From the NCBI GenBank assembly GCA_050740915.1, contig JBOIEG010001140.1, positions 1 through 35,994 on the forward strand: a DNA stretch of 35,994 nucleotides, read 5' to 3'. The stretch is from Gammaproteobacteria bacterium. Lineage in GTDB: Bacteria > Pseudomonadota > Gammaproteobacteria > JBOHHR01. The position numbers were made by a program, and so were the translations under genes. Position 1 is the first letter of the stretch, and every line of letters begins with the position of its first letter. Shown here one piece after another: positions 1,566 through 6,654 of this stretch. The notes beneath the pieces were generated by a model. The model saw only the letters and a list, made by a program, of their open reading frames with translations, searched no databases and had not been told where the DNA came from.

Positions 1566-2833
1566 ATGAGCATGGCCGTCATCCCGAGCGCAGCAGTCTT
1601 CCCAGAAAGGACACCAATGCCACCACCCAAGCCCTTGATCTGGCGAAAGCAAGCCACGGCTGTGGCCGCCTCGCTCGCTCTTGTAGGACTCGTCATGGCC
1701 GAGCCCCGGAGGGGGCAGACAGTTCCGGATCCTCACCCAACGATTGCGCAACTGCTGCGAAGGTTCGAGGAGCGCGATGCCCGCATTGTGGATCTGCAGC
1801 AGCGCGTTGCAGCGCTTGAGCAGCGAATCGCCACACCGGCCAGCCGGGTACCGCCAGCTAACGCGCCACCGCTGGCCTCATCGGCCGAGCAGGTGCCCTC
1901 GACCCCGGCCGAAGGGGCGCCAACGGTTAAGAGCGGTGCAGCACAGGCGGCGCCTGGCCAAATCGAGGCCGACGAGGAGGTGGCCGAGCGCGCTCTGGAG
2001 CGGACCCTGGTGGGACGGGCGCACTGCTTCTGCCCTTTGGGAAGGCCGAAATCCAGCCTAGCTTCGCCTATATCCGAAGCCAGCAAGATGCCCCTGCAGC
2101 GATGTTGTTCTTCGAGAGCGGGAGGCCGTTTATCGGATCCCAAGAGGTTCGTAGCAATAGCTTAAACGGCAACCTCTTTCTGCGCTTTGGTCTCCCCTTG
2201 GACTCGCAACTGGAGATCGGCATTCCTTATCGATATGTTGAGCAGGCCGTGGTCACAAAAGTCGGTTTTGACGCACGTGCCGAGACGGAGAGTCATGGCT
2301 CGGGATTCGGTGATCTCCGTTTTGGCCTAGCCAAGGGGCTACTGCGCGAGCGCAACTGGTGGCCGGATCTCATCGGTAGGGTGACATGGGATATGGACTC
2401 TGGCGCAACCTTCGATGACGGTGTTTCTCTTGGCGGCGGCTTCAATGAGCTTCAGGGATCGCTAACTACGATCAAACGCCAAGACCCGCTCGCGTTCATC
2501 GGCACCGCCTCCTACGGAACCACCTTGGAAAAGGACGACATCAATCCGGGCGACACGCTTGGCTTCTCGGTCGGGGCGCTGCTGGCCGCCAGTCCTGAGA
2601 CCTCGCTGCGCGTTATTCTCAATCAGACCTTCGTCAACGAGCTGGAGGTCGGCGATGGGGCCATCAGCGGATCCGATCAGGTGTTTGGAACGATGGACTT
2701 TGGGGTCTCCTCAATTATCGGCCGCGGGAAGTTTCTCGATCTCACGGTCGGGATGGGTTTGACCGATGAGGCCCCGGATTACTCAGTAGGGATTTCTCTA
2801 GCGGTGCGCTTCGACATTCCCACCCGCTTCTAG
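1566..2833 (+). pseudogene. Outer-membrane beta-barrel protein (signal peptide, coiled-coil/Pro-rich N-region, barrel resembling the MetA-pathway/transporter OMP family), frameshifted near 2010-2022
   Basis: ORF 1566..2165 (…EVAERALERTLVGR) continues in the frame of ORF 2102..2833 as GALLLPFGKAEIQPSFAYIRSQQDAPAAMLFFESGR. The barrel part has alternating hydrophobic strands and ends ...AVRFDIPTRF (C-terminal Phe). Alternative start ATG 1617 (AAAGGA RBS). Confidence 0.65.
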
Positions 2834-2860
2834 CATCCCTCCGTTTAGCCGCACACCTAG

Positions 2861-3096
2861 GTGGAAGACTATCCGGGAACCCTTGCTCAGTTCGAGGAAC
2901 GATTCGCCACCGATGGGGCCTGCCGAGCGTACATGGCTCGGTTGCGCTGGCGCGAGGTTACCGTTGCCGCAAATGCGGGACCATGCGCAGTTGGGTGACG
3001 AAGGAGGGCCTCATGAAGTGCGTCCAGTAGGTCCCACTACCTTCGCGCAACTCGTCACTAGGTCCGAACACAATCTGTAGGGACAGGTCCAGTTAA
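2861..3096 (+). mobile_element. Degenerate N-terminal remnant of an IS1595-family (ISXO2-like) transposase
   Basis: VEDYPGTLAQFEERFATDGACRAYMARLRWRE, then (1-nt shift at about 2956) GYRCRKCGTMRSWVTKEGLMKCVQ, then TAG 3028-3030, then VPLPSRNSSLGPNTICRDR. This matches the zinc-ribbon N-terminus typical of IS1595 transposases (…TLxEFxxRFxTEEACxxYLxxxRWPxGFxCPxCG…). The family pattern is recalled, not searched. Confidence 0.5.
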
Positions 3097-3351
3097 GTAA
3101 ATACCCCTCTGGGGTTAAATGAGGTTGGAATGGACCGAACCTGCCGCCACGCAGTGCAAGGAATCCATGACTACACTCCGAAGTTCAGCGCTTTCCACGC
3201 CACATTCACCGACCGGGTTACTGGTTATTTAAGGTGAACCCGACAATTAAATGTCAAGTTGACTTCCACTAAGAGCCTTCTTGTACGGACAATGCCCGTA
3301 CGCTATCATAGGACGGTAGCTTGGAGGAGAGATAGTTCCATAAGCACGTCT

Positions 3352-3576
3352 ATGACAACGCGAAGCGAGCGCATCGAGTTGCGAGCAACCCCCGAGGAGA
3401 AGTCGCTGCTCGCCCGAGCGGCAGCCTACGAGCGGCTCGATCTGACCTCCTTCGTGATGAGATCCGTGTTGCCAGCGGCTGAAAAGATCGTTCGCCGGGC
3501 GGAACGTATCTCCCTCAGCGAGCGTGACACGAAGCGCGTCCTTGATCTCCACCAAAGCCAACGGAGAAGCTCCTGA
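3352..3576 (+). CDS. DUF1778 (TacA/AtaR/KacA-type, RHH) antitoxin, C-terminus altered by a 1-nt frameshift
   Basis: MTTRSERIELRATPEEKSLLARAAAYERLDLTSFVMRSVLPAAEKIV is typical DUF1778. After ...RVLDL the family-typical tail PPKPTEKLLRAARARRAR* sits in another frame (3549-3605). Confidence 0.75.
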   Translation: MTTRSERIELRATPEEKSLLARAAAYERLDLTSFVMRSVLPAAEKIVRRAERISLSERDTKRVLDLHQSQRRSS

Positions 3577-3604
3577 GGGCCGCCCGAGCGCGACGCGCGC
3601 GCTG

Positions 3605-4132
3605 ATGCTGAGCCACGACTGGCGCGAGGAGCCGATCTCGCGTCAGCATGAGCGCCGAGCCTTTGACTGCGGTGTCCTCGAGCTTAACGAATACCTCCAG
3701 CGCTATGCCAGGCAGAATCACGAGAGCGGAGGAGTGAAAACCTTTGTCGCCGTTTCCCGCAGCGATCCCAAGCGGGTCCTTGGTTGTTACACACTGAGCC
3801 CAGGGGCGATCGAGTTCGCCCAAGTACCCCAAGTCGTGCGCAAGGGTCTGGGCCAGTATGAGGTGCCGGTGTTTCGGCTCGCGCGCCTCGCGGTCGATAA
3901 GTCTGCCCAAGGCCAAGGGCTGGGAAGCCAACTCTTGCTGAGCGCTGGCGAACGGTGTCTCGCCATAGCCGCCGTGGTGGGCGGGATGGCTCTGGCGATT
4001 GACGCCAAGGACGAGCGGGCTGCTCAATGGTATGAAGGATTCGGAGCACTAAAGCTATTCGATTCACCCCGACAACTGGTGTTACCCCTTGCCACTATCG
4101 CGGCCGCCCTTCAGCGGGGGCGACGCACATGA
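3605..4132 (+). CDS. GNAT-family acetyltransferase toxin (TacT/AtaT/KacT-type)
   Basis: MLSHDWREEPISRQHERRAFDCGVLELNEYLQRYARQNHESGGVKTFVAV..., acetyl-CoA motif AQGQGLGSQLL, C-terminal WYEGFGA. ATG 3605 overlaps the TGA (3603-3605) of the frame-restored antitoxin. Confidence 0.8.
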   Translation: MLSHDWREEPISRQHERRAFDCGVLELNEYLQRYARQNHESGGVKTFVAVSRSDPKRVLGCYTLSPGAIEFAQVPQVVRKGLGQYEVPVFRLARLAVDKSAQGQGLGSQLLLSAGERCLAIAAVVGGMALAIDAKDERAAQWYEGFGALKLFDSPRQLVLPLATIAAALQRGRRT

Positions 4133-4270
4133 GGGGGGTCACCAAGCAACACCCCCCAGGCAAGGCGCAGCGGCGCCGGAATAGCCCACCACTCCCTATT
4201 TCAAGCTGCTGCAACACGCCGCCTCCGCTCCCGCCGGGCAAGCCGCCGCGCCGCCATCGGTTGTTGCGGG

Positions 4271-4289
4271 TGCGACAATTTGTCGCATT
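4271..4289. promoter_or_regulatory. Candidate operator: 17-bp palindrome TGCGACAA-T-TTGTCGCA (copy 1 of a 19-bp element shared with 6655-6673)
   Basis: tgcgacaatttgtcgcatt is identical at 4271-4289 and 6655-6673. It has 8-bp perfect arms. It lies 21 bp upstream of a TATACT hexamer (4310-4315) and upstream of the aminotransferase-remnant/MbtH unit. Confidence 0.45.
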
Positions 4290-4324
4290 CCCTTTTGGGC
4301 CGTTATCTTTATACTGGACGCTCA

Positions 4325-5085
4325 ATGAACGAGTCAAAAAACGCAGCGGCGGTCCGTTCGGAAGGATGCATGCGCCGTGACGGCGATCCGCTCACTACAA
4401 GCGGTTTGGGTTGTCTGCGGGAAGATAGCGCTGACATCTTTCTCACGCGCCAATGCCGCGTTGAGTCCAACGCGCGTAGCTACCCGAGGCGGATCCCGAC
4501 CGCGTTACGTAGCGCTAAGGGAATTCTCGTCACCGATACCGAGGGCCGGACGTATATCGATTGCCTGGCCGGCGCCGGGGCACTGGCGCTCGGCCACGCG
4601 CAACCCGTCGTCGTCGAGGCCGTACAACAAGCGCTGAAAGAGTGCGTTCCCTGGCAAACCTTGGACCTCACTACTCCTATCAAGCACGAGCTCATGCAAG
4701 AGTTGCTTGCCAGCCTGCCCGGCAGCTTCGCATCGTGCGCTAAGATCCTGTTGTGCGCGCCCTCGGGCGCAGACGCGGTGGAGGCGGCATTAAAACTGGT
4801 CAAGACCGCAACCGGACGCCGGACGATGTGCGCGGCAAGGGGCTGATGGTTGGCGTTGAAATCGTGGATCGGGAGCACTGGGTATCCGGTCAGTTTGCGC
4901 CTCCGGCTAGCGCCGAGATGGCCAGGCGTATCCAGCGTCAGGCCTTGCGCTTCGGCCTCATTTTGGAGGCAGGCGGTCGATTCAACAGCGTGCTGCGCTT
5001 TTTGCCGCCGCTCATCGTGACTGCGGCGAATGTCGATGAGATCCTCGCGCGATTTACTGCCGCGGTGCGAGCCGCAGAAACCTAG
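4325..5085 (+). pseudogene. PvdH/EctB-like diaminobutyrate-2-oxoglutarate aminotransferase remnant (N-terminal ~165 aa joined out of frame to C-terminal ~88 aa; PLP-Lys region missing)
   Basis: N part: ESNARSYPRRIPTALRSAKGILVTDTEGRTYIDCLAGAGALALGH...DAVEAALKLVKTATGRR. C part (other frame): DVRGKGLMVGVEIVD...[29 protein letters not shown]. The junction at about 4812-4825 carries ccggacg twice in tandem. Alternative start ATG 4370. Confidence 0.7.
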
Positions 5086-5116
5086 ACCAAGATGCAAACA
5101 CACATGGGAGGTTCCT

Positions 5117-5350
5117 ATGTCCTGGGACGATGATGACGACACTACGATCTACCACGTCGTGGCCAACCACGAAGAGCAATACTCGATCTGGCCCGAGTAC
5201 AAGAAGATCCCGAACGGCTGGCGGGCCGTAGGCAAGACAGGGCCCAAGGCCGAGTGCTTAGCCTACATCAACGAGGTATGGACCGATATGCGTCCCCTCA
5301 GCTTGCGCAAGGCAATGGAAGCTGAGCAGGAGGCGCAAGAAAAAGGCTGA
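5117..5350 (+). CDS. MbtH-like protein
   Basis: [63 protein letters not shown] carries the conserved W..W..W/MbtH signature. GGGAGG at 5106-5111 lies 5 nt before the ATG. Confidence 0.9.
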
Positions 5351-5358
5351 TCCTGATC

Positions 5359-5869
5359 TTGCTGGCGCTTGCGCCGCGAATGCAGCGTTGGCGATATATC
5401 GTGCGGCCAACCGGGCCGCGCTTGCCCTCCTTGCGGTCCTCGTGTTGGGTGGGGCTTGCGATCGGTGTCGCGCTGCGCCTTTCTCTGCCAAAGCTGGACG
5501 GCACTATCGAGTTGCCTGGATTGTACGCCTTGAGCACCGCGCGCGGTTCCGATGGTAGCTTGAAACTCGACTAGCAGGACGGTGCTCTTTGCGATCGCCT
5601 GATTAACGCCCTAGCTGCCGGGCTGTGTGCAACGCGTGCGGCTTGCCGACGGCGCCATAGGCGCGAGCGAACGCCTGGTAGTTTCCCCGGGCCGCGAGGC
5701 AGCTGGCAGCTTGCACATCGCGGGCGGGCAATCTGGCCACCCGCTGTCGCCCTACTGTCGAGACCAGCAGACACATTGGCTGCGAGAGAATGCATCCCCG
5801 TTTCTTGCCGGCGTCGCTCGGCACCGCTTGAGACTCATGCCGAAAAATCCCCGGCTACCATCCATTTGA
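5359..5869 (+). pseudogene. Penicillin-amidase/PvdQ-like (Ntn hydrolase, S45) acylase remnant: only N-terminal and C-terminal ends remain
   Basis: N end: ...RLSLPKLDGTIELPGL (the family-typical SLPxLDGTxxLPGL after a signal anchor, itself frameshifted). C end: GASERLVVSPG...GGQSGHPLSPYCRDQQTHWLRENASPF...HRLRLMP (typical GQSGxPxSPHYxDQ tail). About 0.5 kb remains. Confidence 0.6.
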
Positions 5870-6593
5870 ACCGGCGTGTGGCGTGGATGGGTGTGGCAGC
5901 TGCTAGCGCGGCCATGTAGTTCGCTTTGACAGAGAGCGTTGTAACTCGCCACGGCTCGCCGTTGTCCCATTCCGGCTGAACGACGACATCCGCTTGCGTG
6001 CGGTACTTGAACCGGATAGAAAACGCCTTAAGAGGCAGGGAGAGTCCCAGACCACGGCCCTTGATGTAGGCCTCCTTGTGAGTCCAGAGCCGGAAAAACA
6101 GCTGCCGCCGTTGCTTAACCGGCTCGCACGCTAATAGCTCAAGCTCCGCATCGGAGAATACGTGCCGTGCGAGGGCCTGCCAATCAAGGCCGCGATCGGC
6201 GTACTCCACGTCGATCCCCACCGCCTGGGTTGAGACGGCGAATAGGCCCAATCCCCGCGAGTGGGCAAGATTGAAATGCACTGTGCCATGGGGTGCGGTG
6301 AGTCGCGGCTTTCCGTATTTATTCGTTTCGAACACCAGAGATTGGGGTGGACGATCGAGGTATATCGAGAGGATCTGGCGCATCGCCGCCCTGGCGTTGA
6401 ACCAGCGACGCCTATGGCTTGCGAAGTAAAAGCGGGACCCGCGCAGAAGCTCGGTATCGTCCAGTAATTCGCGCAACGATTCGGCACCAATGGGATCGTC
6501 GAGCGGGATCGTCCAGAGGTGAGCTTCGTTCGGCTTCAGCTGCACGCTGGCGCGCGTTTCAGGGTTGCAAAATGCCATAACATCCGAATGCAC
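5835..6593 (-). CDS. Sfp-type 4'-phosphopantetheinyl transferase
   Basis: KYGKPRL, FNLAHSRG, GIDVEY and WTHKEAYIKGRG motifs. The preferred start is GTG 6593, preceded by GGAGGG (6606-6601, 7-nt spacer). Alternatives are ATG 6578 and the ORF-track TTG 6620. Confidence 0.85.
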   Translation of the reverse strand: MHSDVMAFCNPETRASVQLKPNEAHLWTIPLDDPIGAESLRELLDDTELLRGSRFYFASHRRRWFNARAAMRQILSIYLDRPPQSLVFETNKYGKPRLTAPHGTVHFNLAHSRGLGLFAVSTQAVGIDVEYADRGLDWQALARHVFSDAELELLACEPVKQRRQLFFRLWTHKEAYIKGRGLGLSLPLKAFSIRFKYRTQADVVVQPEWDNGEPWRVTTLSVKANYMAALAAATPIHATRRFKWMVAGDFSA

Positions 6594-6654
6594 GGATCTG
6601 CCCTCCAAATCCCAGACCAAAGATTATATCCGCTAGAGCTCTGCGTGAACCGCC

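What the first reader, a model, noticed from the sequence alone, without database searches (positions are those of the whole stretch)
3541..3607. Single-C loss frameshifts the DUF1778 antitoxin just before its C-terminal tail, while the GNAT toxin looks intact
The frame in use reads …DTKRVLDLHQSQRRSS* (stop 3574-3576). Reading from 3549 in the next frame gives PPKPTEKLLRAARARRAR*. That matches the usual DUF1778 tail, and its TGA (3603-3605) overlaps the toxin ATG (3605-3607) in a typical TGATG coupling. Restoring one C in ctcc(c)acca would recreate it. Established: in TacAT/AtaRT/KacAT-type systems the C-terminal part of the antitoxin contacts and neutralises the acetyltransferase. The toxin retains its acetyl-CoA motif (QGQGLG) and the WYEGFG region. 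So this is either a homopolymer sequencing error or a case where an active tRNA-acetylating toxin is paired with a crippled antitoxin.
Basis: partly seen in the sequence, partly recalled or inferred. Interest (0 to 1): 0.6.

Follow-up and report, generated by a model that had tools for sequence, protein, structure and literature searches.

The report
Decaying TacAT3-type toxin-antitoxin module
A toxin-antitoxin gene pair of a well-known kind is falling apart in this uncultured bacterium: the antidote gene has lost 10 bases and its start codon while the toxin gene is still open, and closely related strains have broken the toxin instead, so this is ordinary gene decay and not a sequencing error.

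Summary
Sister contigs that are 98% identical read GAT CTG CTC GAG GAT CCA CCC AAG (…DLLEDPPK…). The window lacks 10 bp (TGCTCGAGGA) between 3547 and 3548.

The same lineage also changed the family's conserved start codon from ATG to ATA (3340-3342). It carries two private toxin substitutions, V121I and V128M, at near-invariant positions.

A contig built by another assembler from one public run is identical to the window, including the deletion and the ATA codon. About 28 kb of NRPS reading frame on the same contig is unbroken. A homopolymer or assembly artefact is therefore very unlikely.

The module is TacAT3-like: the toxin matches PDB 6G96 at E 1e-60 and the antitoxin matches 7ZG5 at E 1e-21. 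The product keeps the RHH domain, βB and most of αC. It loses the PPxP linker and αD, the helix that sits in the acetyl-CoA site.

The toxin has no Shine-Dalgarno sequence, and its TGATG coupling is lost.

Three sister contigs keep the antitoxin but carry Q14* in the toxin.

Verdict: a real, lineage-specific pseudogenisation of a known TA type. The toxin is probably silent or attenuated. Interest is low to moderate.

The parts
3110..4155 (+). TA cassette: the stretch that is conserved (about 94-95% identity) in contigs with quite different flanks (VapBC upstream, IS66 downstream).
   Evidence: The blastn gives L017, L020 and L021 aligning to window 3110-4155 only.
3283..3301 (+). Near-perfect palindrome GTACGGACA/TGCCCGTAC upstream of the antitoxin. 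It is a candidate RHH operator (inference only).
   Evidence: Inverted repeat I2. The formal sigma-70 scan found no promoter.
3325..3331 (+). Shine-Dalgarno GGAGGAG. It lies 8 nt before the ancestral start codon and 20 nt before ATG 3352.
   Evidence: Read directly.
3340..3342 (+). ATA at the position of the family's conserved ATG start (private G>A at 3342).
   Evidence: all eight relatives have G here. M1 is at least 90% conserved in 121 homologues.
3352..3576 (+). Antitoxin remnant ORF of 74 aa (P0002). It holds the RHH domain, βB and αC minus its last 3 residues, followed by the nonsense tail HQSQRRSS.
   Evidence: The mapping onto KacA and TacA3 comes and PMC6698736.
3547..3548 (+). Junction of the 10-bp deletion. 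The relatives have TGCTCGAGGA here.
   Evidence: Alignment A1 and the variant tables.
3549..3605 (+). Out-of-frame remnant of the neutralising tail (PPKP linker plus αD), PPKPTEKLLRAARARRAR*. Its TGA overlaps the toxin ATG.
   Evidence: L71, P74, P75, P77, L81, A84 and A85 are at least 90% conserved.
3605..4132 (+). GNAT toxin ORF of 175 aa (P0001), open and TacT3-like. Arg94 (3884-3886), QGQGLG (3908-3925) and the catalytic Tyr143 (4031-4033) are all kept.
   Evidence: PMC5959882 reports that TacT3 Y143F and R94E abolish toxicity.
3965..3967 (+). Private G>A change giving toxin V121I. This position is Val in 119 of 120 homologues.
   Evidence: The residue lies in helix 106-125 of the model.
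3986..3988 (+). Private G>A change giving toxin V128M. This position is V, I or L in all 120 homologues and never Met.
   Evidence: The residue lies at the N-terminal edge of strand 129-133.

Best explanation
Window 3110-4155 carries a TacAT3-type type II toxin-antitoxin cassette. It has a DUF1778 ribbon-helix-helix antitoxin followed by a GNAT toxin of the kind that acetylates aminoacyl-tRNA.

In this lineage the antitoxin gene has been genuinely mutated twice:
- The conserved start codon became ATA.
- A 10-bp deletion removed Leu-Glu-Asp and shifted the frame. Any product ends after most of helix αC and lacks the PPxP linker and helix αD, which in solved relatives occupies the toxin's acetyl-CoA site.

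The toxin gene has no ribosome-binding site of its own. In intact relatives it starts at a TGATG overlap with the antitoxin stop. Here the upstream ribosomes start poorly and stop 28 nt early.

My inference is that the toxin is now made at very low level. It is probably also weakened by its two private substitutions, V121I and V128M. On this reading the whole module is a tolerated, decaying remnant and not an unleashed toxin.

Shown: the lesions, that they are private and derived, the family assignment, and the parts lost.

Inferred: low toxin expression, attenuation of the toxin, and the order of events.
For: Lesion and its polarity:
- Sister contigs L014, L015 and L019 (98% identical, same flanks) are intact at both antitoxin sites. 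So are the outgroups L017, L018, L020 and L021.
- In the 90% cluster, 11 of the 12 other members are 87-91 aa and read …LDLLEDPPKPTEK….
- All 120 listed homologues are at least 88 aa.

Not an artefact:
- L016, a Logan contig from one run built by another assembler, is 100% identical over window 2001-3886, including ATA and the deletion.
- Three ORFs of 3338, 2590 and 3409 aa on the same contig are unbroken.
- A 10-bp loss is not a homopolymer error.

Family:
- PF08681 scores 65 bits, against a cut-off of 21.
- The toxin matches 6G96 (TacT3) at E 1.3e-60 and the antitoxin matches 7ZG5_C at E 1.3e-21.
- The 36-aa TacA3 fragment in PDB 7AK9 (chain C), which I take from memory to be the neutralising peptide, aligns to intact residues 59-87. 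Only residues 59-70 of that stretch survive here.
- The role of αD in the acetyl-CoA site is described in PMC6698736 section 16 and PMC7758455.

Dispensability:
- Toxin Q14* (CAG>TAG) with an intact antitoxin occurs in L015, L025 and L026, from three runs.
- L025 also has a 6-bp deletion in the toxin.
- In L024 homology to the toxin ends near residue 82.

Toxin changes:
- Both of the window's private toxin differences are residues never seen at columns that are at least 80% conserved.
- Only about 4.5% of nearest-neighbour differences in the family are of that kind.

Coupling:
- No GGAG, GAGG or AGGA lies in the 25 nt before ATG 3605.
- TGATG is conserved in the relatives.
Against: - The toxin ORF is fully open. 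It keeps Tyr143, Arg94 and the acetyl-CoA loop.
- V>I and V>M are conservative changes, and no assay shows that they weaken the enzyme.
- With only two substitutions the statistics are thin. The toxin's dN/dS between clades is already about 0.55.
- Termination and reinitiation across 28 nt, or initiation at ATG 3352, could still give some toxin and some truncated antitoxin.
- No second DUF1778 gene was found in the genome that could neutralise in trans. If the toxin were active, nothing known would hold it.
- Reads could not be inspected. The allele's frequency in the population is therefore unknown, and L016 probably rests on the same reads as the MAG.
Confidence: 0.72

Rival explanations
1. 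Sequencing or assembly artefact: the organism really has an intact antitoxin.
For: The genome is a very fragmented MAG (1403 contigs, N50 5.8 kb). Reads could not be checked. The deletion junction was found in no other record of genome contigs or metagenome contigs.
Against: - The lesion is 10 bp of mixed sequence, not a homopolymer slip.
- A contig from a different assembler is identical.
- The allele also carries nine private substitutions, including the start-codon change, so it is a distinct haplotype.
- 28 kb of NRPS frames on the same contig are unbroken.
Confidence: 0.05
2. The truncated antitoxin still works. Made from ATG 3352, it keeps the RHH domain, βB and most of αC. It would bind the toxin and repress the operon well enough without αD.
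For: - In KacAT, βB and αC make extensive contacts: a parallel β-sheet with the toxin's β3 and a hydrophobic patch (PMC6698736).
- The window keeps these up to the residue equivalent to KacA 67.
- An earlier scan note (e1-031452, unchecked) reports an E. coli tacAT2 allele with the same 'tail out of frame, toxin intact' pattern. A second note, e1-1985887, reports a DUF1778 antitoxin whose frame breaks after about 27 codons beside an intact GNAT toxin. Such alleles therefore seem to recur.
Against: - αD is the element that occupies the acetyl-CoA site, and its residues L81, A84 and A85 plus the PPxP linker are at least 90% conserved.
- No conserved class of short-tailed antitoxins exists. Short hits have unrelated scrambled tails.
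- The native start codon is gone, and ATG 3352 lies 20 nt from the SD.
Confidence: 0.1
3. An active, unneutralised toxin. The bacterium lives with low-level acetylation of aminoacyl-tRNA, which slows growth or raises tolerance. Alternatively the GNAT has been kept for another acetylation role.
For: The toxin ORF is open with all catalytic residues, while both antitoxin lesions are disruptive. The two private changes are conservative.
Against: - Sister strains inactivate the toxin by a nonsense codon, so there is no sign of selection to keep it.
- The toxin has no SD of its own and has lost its coupling.
- Both private substitutions hit near-invariant positions.
Confidence: 0.1
4. A programmed -1 ribosomal frameshift restores the tail.
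For: The tail frame is open from 3546 to 3605 and ends in the canonical TGATG.
Against: - The shift would have to occur within 3546-3576, where there is no X XXY YYZ slippery site.
- The RNA downstream folds no better than shuffled sequence (z +0.82).
- The arrangement is private to one lineage and arose by deletion. Even if read through, the product would lack Leu-Glu-Asp.
Confidence: 0.02

Closest known systems
Salmonella TacAT3 (TacT3 PDB 6G96; TacT3 with a 36-aa TacA3 fragment, 7AK9; TacA3 chain in 7ZG5)
   Same: - It is the best structural relative of both genes: toxin E 1.3e-60 over residues 4-172, antitoxin E 1.3e-21.
- The catalytic Tyr143 and Arg94 are conserved. Y143F and R94E abolish TacT3 toxicity (PMC5959882).
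- It has the same gene order, and intact relatives have the same stop/start overlap.
- TacT3 acetylates Gly-tRNAGly in vivo (PMC9177977).
   Different: - Here the antitoxin has lost its start codon and, through a 10-bp deletion, its linker and αD.
- The toxin carries I121 and M128.
- The host is an uncultured environmental Gammaproteobacteria-like MAG.
- The tRNA target is untested.
Klebsiella KacAT (PDB 5ZGN; PMC6698736)
   Same: The antitoxin architecture is the same: RHH, βB (52-56), αC (57-70), PPAP (71-74) and αD (75-86). The intact relative P0003 aligns with an offset of +3.
   Different: The window's product stops being homologous at the equivalent of KacA residue 67. It therefore lacks I68 of αC, the linker and αD.
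E. coli AtaRT (PDB 6AJM, 6GTS, 6GTQ)
   Same: The DUF1778 antitoxin's C-terminal region neutralises the GNAT toxin (PMC7758455). In the 6GTQ entry, chain C is a 46-aa DUF1778 fragment (by my recollection, AtaR) that aligns to intact residues 47-87.
   Different: It is a more distant relative (antitoxin E about 1e-13, toxin about 1e-16).
Decayed TacAT-type modules noted elsewhere in this scan (for example e1-031452, E. coli tacAT2 with the antitoxin tail frameshifted; e1-2746071 and e1-4000958 with the toxin broken)
   Same: One partner of a DUF1778/GNAT pair is inactivated while the other stays open.
   Different: Those are unchecked notes on other genomes. Here both routes of decay are seen among near-identical copies of one locus.

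Membership tests
DUF1778/GNAT (TacAT, AtaRT, KacAT) type II toxin-antitoxin systems | Antitoxin with an N-terminal ribbon-helix-helix DUF1778 (Pfam TacA1, PF08681) domain | tested here: met
   One search gives 65.4 bits against a cut-off of 21, covering profile positions 1-60 of 80.
DUF1778/GNAT (TacAT, AtaRT, KacAT) type II toxin-antitoxin systems | Antitoxin C-terminal neutralising region (βB-αC-PPxP-αD) in frame | tested here: not met
   The frame in use ends in HQSQRRSS after the residue equivalent to L70. The linker and αD are encoded out of frame at 3549-3605.
DUF1778/GNAT (TacAT, AtaRT, KacAT) type II toxin-antitoxin systems | GNAT toxin with an acetyl-CoA loop and a catalytic Tyr | tested here: met
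   PF13508 scores 31.9 bits against a cut-off of 27. 6G96 matches at E 1.3e-60, with Tyr143, Arg94 and QGQGLG aligned. The AF2 model has pLDDT 90.9.
DUF1778/GNAT (TacAT, AtaRT, KacAT) type II toxin-antitoxin systems | Bicistronic operon with the antitoxin first and stop/start overlap (translational coupling) | tested here: not met
   The gene order is kept. In the window, however, the antitoxin frame stops at 3574-3576, 28 nt before the toxin ATG. The TGATG overlap holds only for the shifted frame and for intact relatives.
DUF1778/GNAT (TacAT, AtaRT, KacAT) type II toxin-antitoxin systems | The toxin arrests growth and the cognate antitoxin neutralises it | not testable with these tools
   This needs expression assays.
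DUF1778/GNAT (TacAT, AtaRT, KacAT) type II toxin-antitoxin systems | The toxin acetylates aminoacyl-tRNA | not testable with these tools
   This is inferred only from similarity to TacT3 (PMC9177977).

The most novel reading that the evidence does not exclude
The antitoxin was lost first, and the lineage survived because V121I and V128M, two neighbouring core positions at the end of the helix that follows the acetyl-CoA loop, tuned the toxin down. That would make this a natural suppressor pair marking a previously unnoticed activity-tuning spot in TacT-type GNAT toxins. Alternatively, the αD-less antitoxin may be a tolerated and recurrent state of these modules.
Probability: 0.12. Interest if true: 0.5.

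Novelty: new member of a known kind. Interest (0 to 1): 0.25.

Why it matters
This finding mostly serves as a correction and a small natural experiment. It shows that an apparent one-base 'homopolymer' frameshift can be a multi-base deletion once relatives are aligned.

Within one clade of near-identical loci it also catches the same TA module in three states: intact, toxin-null (Q14*) and antitoxin-null. Decay from the antitoxin side is the less expected route, because it should be lethal if the toxin is made. The locus therefore offers two concrete candidate attenuating substitutions and a test of how far toxin synthesis depends on translational coupling.

It has no bearing on the neighbouring NRPS cluster, except that it adds to the picture of widespread decay of accessory genes around that cluster.

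Tried and rejected
- Orthologues in 60 related genomes: there are none. The two congeners lack the module, and the class-level hits are at most 44% identical.
- Exact-pattern scans for the deletion junction in genome contigs and metagenome contigs gave 0 hits. The intact junction was found only in one JGI contig that I already held.
- NCBIfam has no model for either protein.
- The sigma-70 promoter scan of 3050-4350 found nothing. The palindrome at 3283-3301 is offered only as a candidate operator.
- Programmed frameshifting: there is no slippery site in the only permissive interval, and the downstream RNA is no more stable than shuffles.
- A functional class of short-tailed antitoxins: the short hits in the 1.84-billion-protein library have unrelated scrambled tails. 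One that I looked up (L027) sits beside a 78-aa gene with no Pfam hit where a toxin would be expected, in a contig whose name suggests a long-read assembly. That case is uninformative.
- Trans-neutralisation by a second DUF1778 gene: the own genome has only this one match.
- dN/dS in the window's lineage: 2 non-synonymous and 0 synonymous toxin changes, which is too few to test. Between clades the ratio is about 0.55.

Full report
**1. The observation**

- From ATG 3352 the frame gives MTTRSER…DTKRVLDLHQSQRRSS*, with its stop at 3574-3576.
- From 3549 the neighbouring frame gives PPKPTEKLLRAARARRAR*.
- That frame's TGA (3603-3605) overlaps the ATG (3605-3607) of an open 175-aa GNAT gene.

The split is real in family terms. 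Pfam TacA1 (PF08681, formerly DUF1778) matches profile positions 1-60 of 80 in the frame in use (65.4 bits). When the second frame is joined on, it matches 1-78 of 80 (76.5 bits).

**2. The lesion is a 10-bp deletion, not a lost C**

A search of the 5.8-billion-protein collection found a 90%-identity cluster around this antitoxin.
- Eleven of its twelve other members are 87-91 aa and read …RVLDLLEDPPKPTEKLL[RK]AARARRAR.
- I fetched their contigs and aligned the DNA. The relatives read GAT CTG CTC GAG GAT CCA CCC AAG, whereas the window reads GAT C-TC CAC CAA AG.
- Ten bases (TGCTCGAGGA) are missing between 3547 and 3548, with a 1-nt ambiguity in placement. This removes Leu-Glu-Asp and shifts the frame.
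- No C-run is involved.

**3. The deletion is private and derived, and it is not the only lesion**

Two groups of relatives were available.
- L014, L015 and L019 are 98% identical to the window. Their homology extends into the same flanks, reaching 2767 on the left (L014) and 4265 on the right (L015, L019), so they are orthologous copies in sister strains.
- L017, L018, L020, L021 and L022 are 94-95% identical, but only over 3110-4155. They sit in other contexts, with VapBC upstream and IS66 downstream, so they serve as an outgroup.

Against both groups the window's lineage has these private changes:
- 3113 T>G, 3154 T>G, 3232 G>A and 3291 G>A, all upstream of the antitoxin.
- 3342 G>A.
- 3507 C>T, which is synonymous.
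- The 10-bp deletion.
- 3554 C>A.
- 3965 G>A and 3986 G>A.

The 3342 change turns the start codon into ATA. That start codon is at least 90% conserved across 121 homologues.

The Shine-Dalgarno sequence GGAGGAG (3325-3331) sits 8 nt before that codon and 20 nt before the next ATG at 3352. Initiation of the remnant ORF is therefore predicted to be poor. This is an inference from the usual spacing rules.

**4. Artefact or real?**

Four indirect points argue for a real allele.
- A 10-bp loss of mixed sequence is not a homopolymer error.
- The exact 74-aa product is on record from a Logan contig of one public run (L016, 3424 bp). That contig was built by a different assembler and is 100% identical to the window over 2001-3886, including ATA and the deletion. 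It probably rests on the same reads, so it excludes an assembler quirk but not a library problem.
- The allele is a distinct haplotype with nine further private substitutions.
- The same contig carries three uninterrupted ORFs of 3338, 2590 and 3409 aa.

I put the artefact at about 5%.

**5. What the module is**

The toxin's best solved relative is Salmonella TacT3 (6G96, E 1.3e-60 over residues 4-172). The antitoxin's best is the TacA3 chain of 7ZG5 (E 1.3e-21). KacAT and AtaRT follow.

TacT3 toxicity is abolished by Y143F and R94E (PMC5959882). The window keeps Tyr143 (4031-4033), Arg94 (3884-3886) and the QGQGLG loop.

In vivo TacT3 acetylates Gly-tRNAGly (PMC9177977). The target of the window's toxin is untested.

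**6. What the antitoxin has lost**

KacA consists of the RHH domain, βB (52-56), αC (57-70), the PPAP linker (71-74) and αD (75-86). βB and αC clamp the toxin surface, and αD lies in the acetyl-CoA-binding site (PMC6698736, section 16). The AtaR C-terminal region likewise blocks substrate and acetyl-CoA alignment (PMC7758455).

The intact relative P0003 aligns to KacA with an offset of +3. The window's product therefore keeps the RHH domain, βB and αC up to the equivalent of KacA 67. It loses the last αC residues, the PPKP linker and all of αD.

The 36-aa TacA3 fragment in PDB 7AK9 (chain C) corresponds to intact residues 59-87; that it is the neutralising peptide is my recollection, not a tool result. 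Only residues 59-70 survive here.

The lost positions L71, P74, P75, P77, L81, A84 and A85 are at least 90% conserved in 121 homologues.

**7. The toxin side**

The toxin ORF is open. However, its only two differences from the nearest intact allele (P0134 in L019) are V121I and V128M.
- Position 121 is Val in 119 of 120 homologues.
- Position 128 is V, I or L in all of them and never Met.
- Across the family, only about 4.5% of nearest-neighbour differences are residues never otherwise seen at columns that are at least 80% conserved. Here both differences are of that kind.
- In a confident model (pLDDT 90.9), residue 121 lies near the end of helix 106-125, which follows the acetyl-CoA loop. 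Residue 128 lies at the start of the next strand.

This is suggestive but thin. There are only two changes and both are conservative. The toxin's dN/dS between clades is already about 0.55.

**8. Coupling**

No GGAG, GAGG or AGGA lies within 25 nt before the toxin ATG, and TGATG is conserved in all relatives. Toxin translation in the intact operon is therefore presumably coupled to the antitoxin.

In the window, ribosomes start poorly (ATA, or a badly spaced ATG) and terminate 28 nt upstream. I infer much reduced toxin synthesis. This has not been shown.

**9. The same locus decays differently in sister strains**

- L015, L025 and L026 come from three different runs. They keep a full-length antitoxin but carry CAG>TAG at toxin codon 14, the equivalent of window 3644.
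- L025 has an additional 6-bp deletion in the toxin.
- In L024, homology to the toxin ends near residue 82.

The module is therefore dispensable in this clade and is being lost by several routes. The window shows the rarer route, decay from the antitoxin side.

Around it, the class-III aminotransferase is split into profile positions 9-108 and 330-402. Earlier notes list more lesions in the first 6 kb (not checked further here).

**10. Rivals**

- A still-functional short antitoxin (10%) is possible because βB and αC remain. But no conserved short-tailed class exists, and the short library hits have unrelated scrambled tails.
- An active, unneutralised toxin (10%) is not excluded, and no second DUF1778 gene exists in the genome.
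- Programmed frameshifting (2%) lacks a slippery site in the only permissive interval, 3546-3576. It also lacks a stable downstream structure.

**11. Verdict**

This is a real, lineage-specific pseudogenisation of a TacAT3-type module in an uncultured MAG. The MAG is Gammaproteobacteria-like, has GC 57.9% and N50 5.8 kb.

It is a new, broken member of a known kind, of low to moderate interest.

Noticed in passing
L015:320-847, L025 and L026 (equivalent to window 3644): Sister-strain copies of the same locus, from three different runs, carry a CAG>TAG nonsense codon at toxin residue 14 while keeping a full-length antitoxin. L025 also has a 6-bp deletion in the toxin.
   Followed up: yes
L024 (equivalent to window 3483-3849): In this 518-bp contig, homology to the toxin stops near residue 82 and unrelated sequence follows. 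This could be an insertion or a rearrangement.
   Followed up: partly
window 4280-5085: The class-III aminotransferase is split into an N-terminal piece (Pfam positions 9-108) and a C-terminal piece (330-402). It is an internal-deletion pseudogene next to MbtH (5030-5350), a PPTase (5835-6620, minus strand) and three intact NRPS ORFs.
   Followed up: partly
window 2861-3080: Short ORFs here read to me like the N-terminus of an IS1595-type transposase, but Pfam gave no hit. The stretch is shared with sister contig L014 with only two substitutions, so it is an old stub.
   Followed up: no
L017:1-9019: In another context the same TA cassette lies between a VapBC (PIN/RHH) pair and IS66-family genes (TnpB_IS66, DDE_Tnp_IS66) that contain a DruA-domain gene. 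The cassette therefore travels with mobile DNA.
   Followed up: no
genome contig C118 (33,152 bp), around 14877: A ParA-like protein on the second-longest contig of this genome falls in a 90% cluster whose named members are 'Thermoproteota archaeon' MAG proteins. This suggests bin contamination or a shared mobile element.
   Followed up: no
P0125 and P0126 (cluster members; L025 and L026 carry P0125): Some otherwise near-identical antitoxin alleles carry unusual substitutions: L23P in the first RHH helix, E55K, and P74Q in the PPxP linker. P0125 pairs with the Q14* toxin, which fits relaxed constraint once the toxin is dead.
   Followed up: partly
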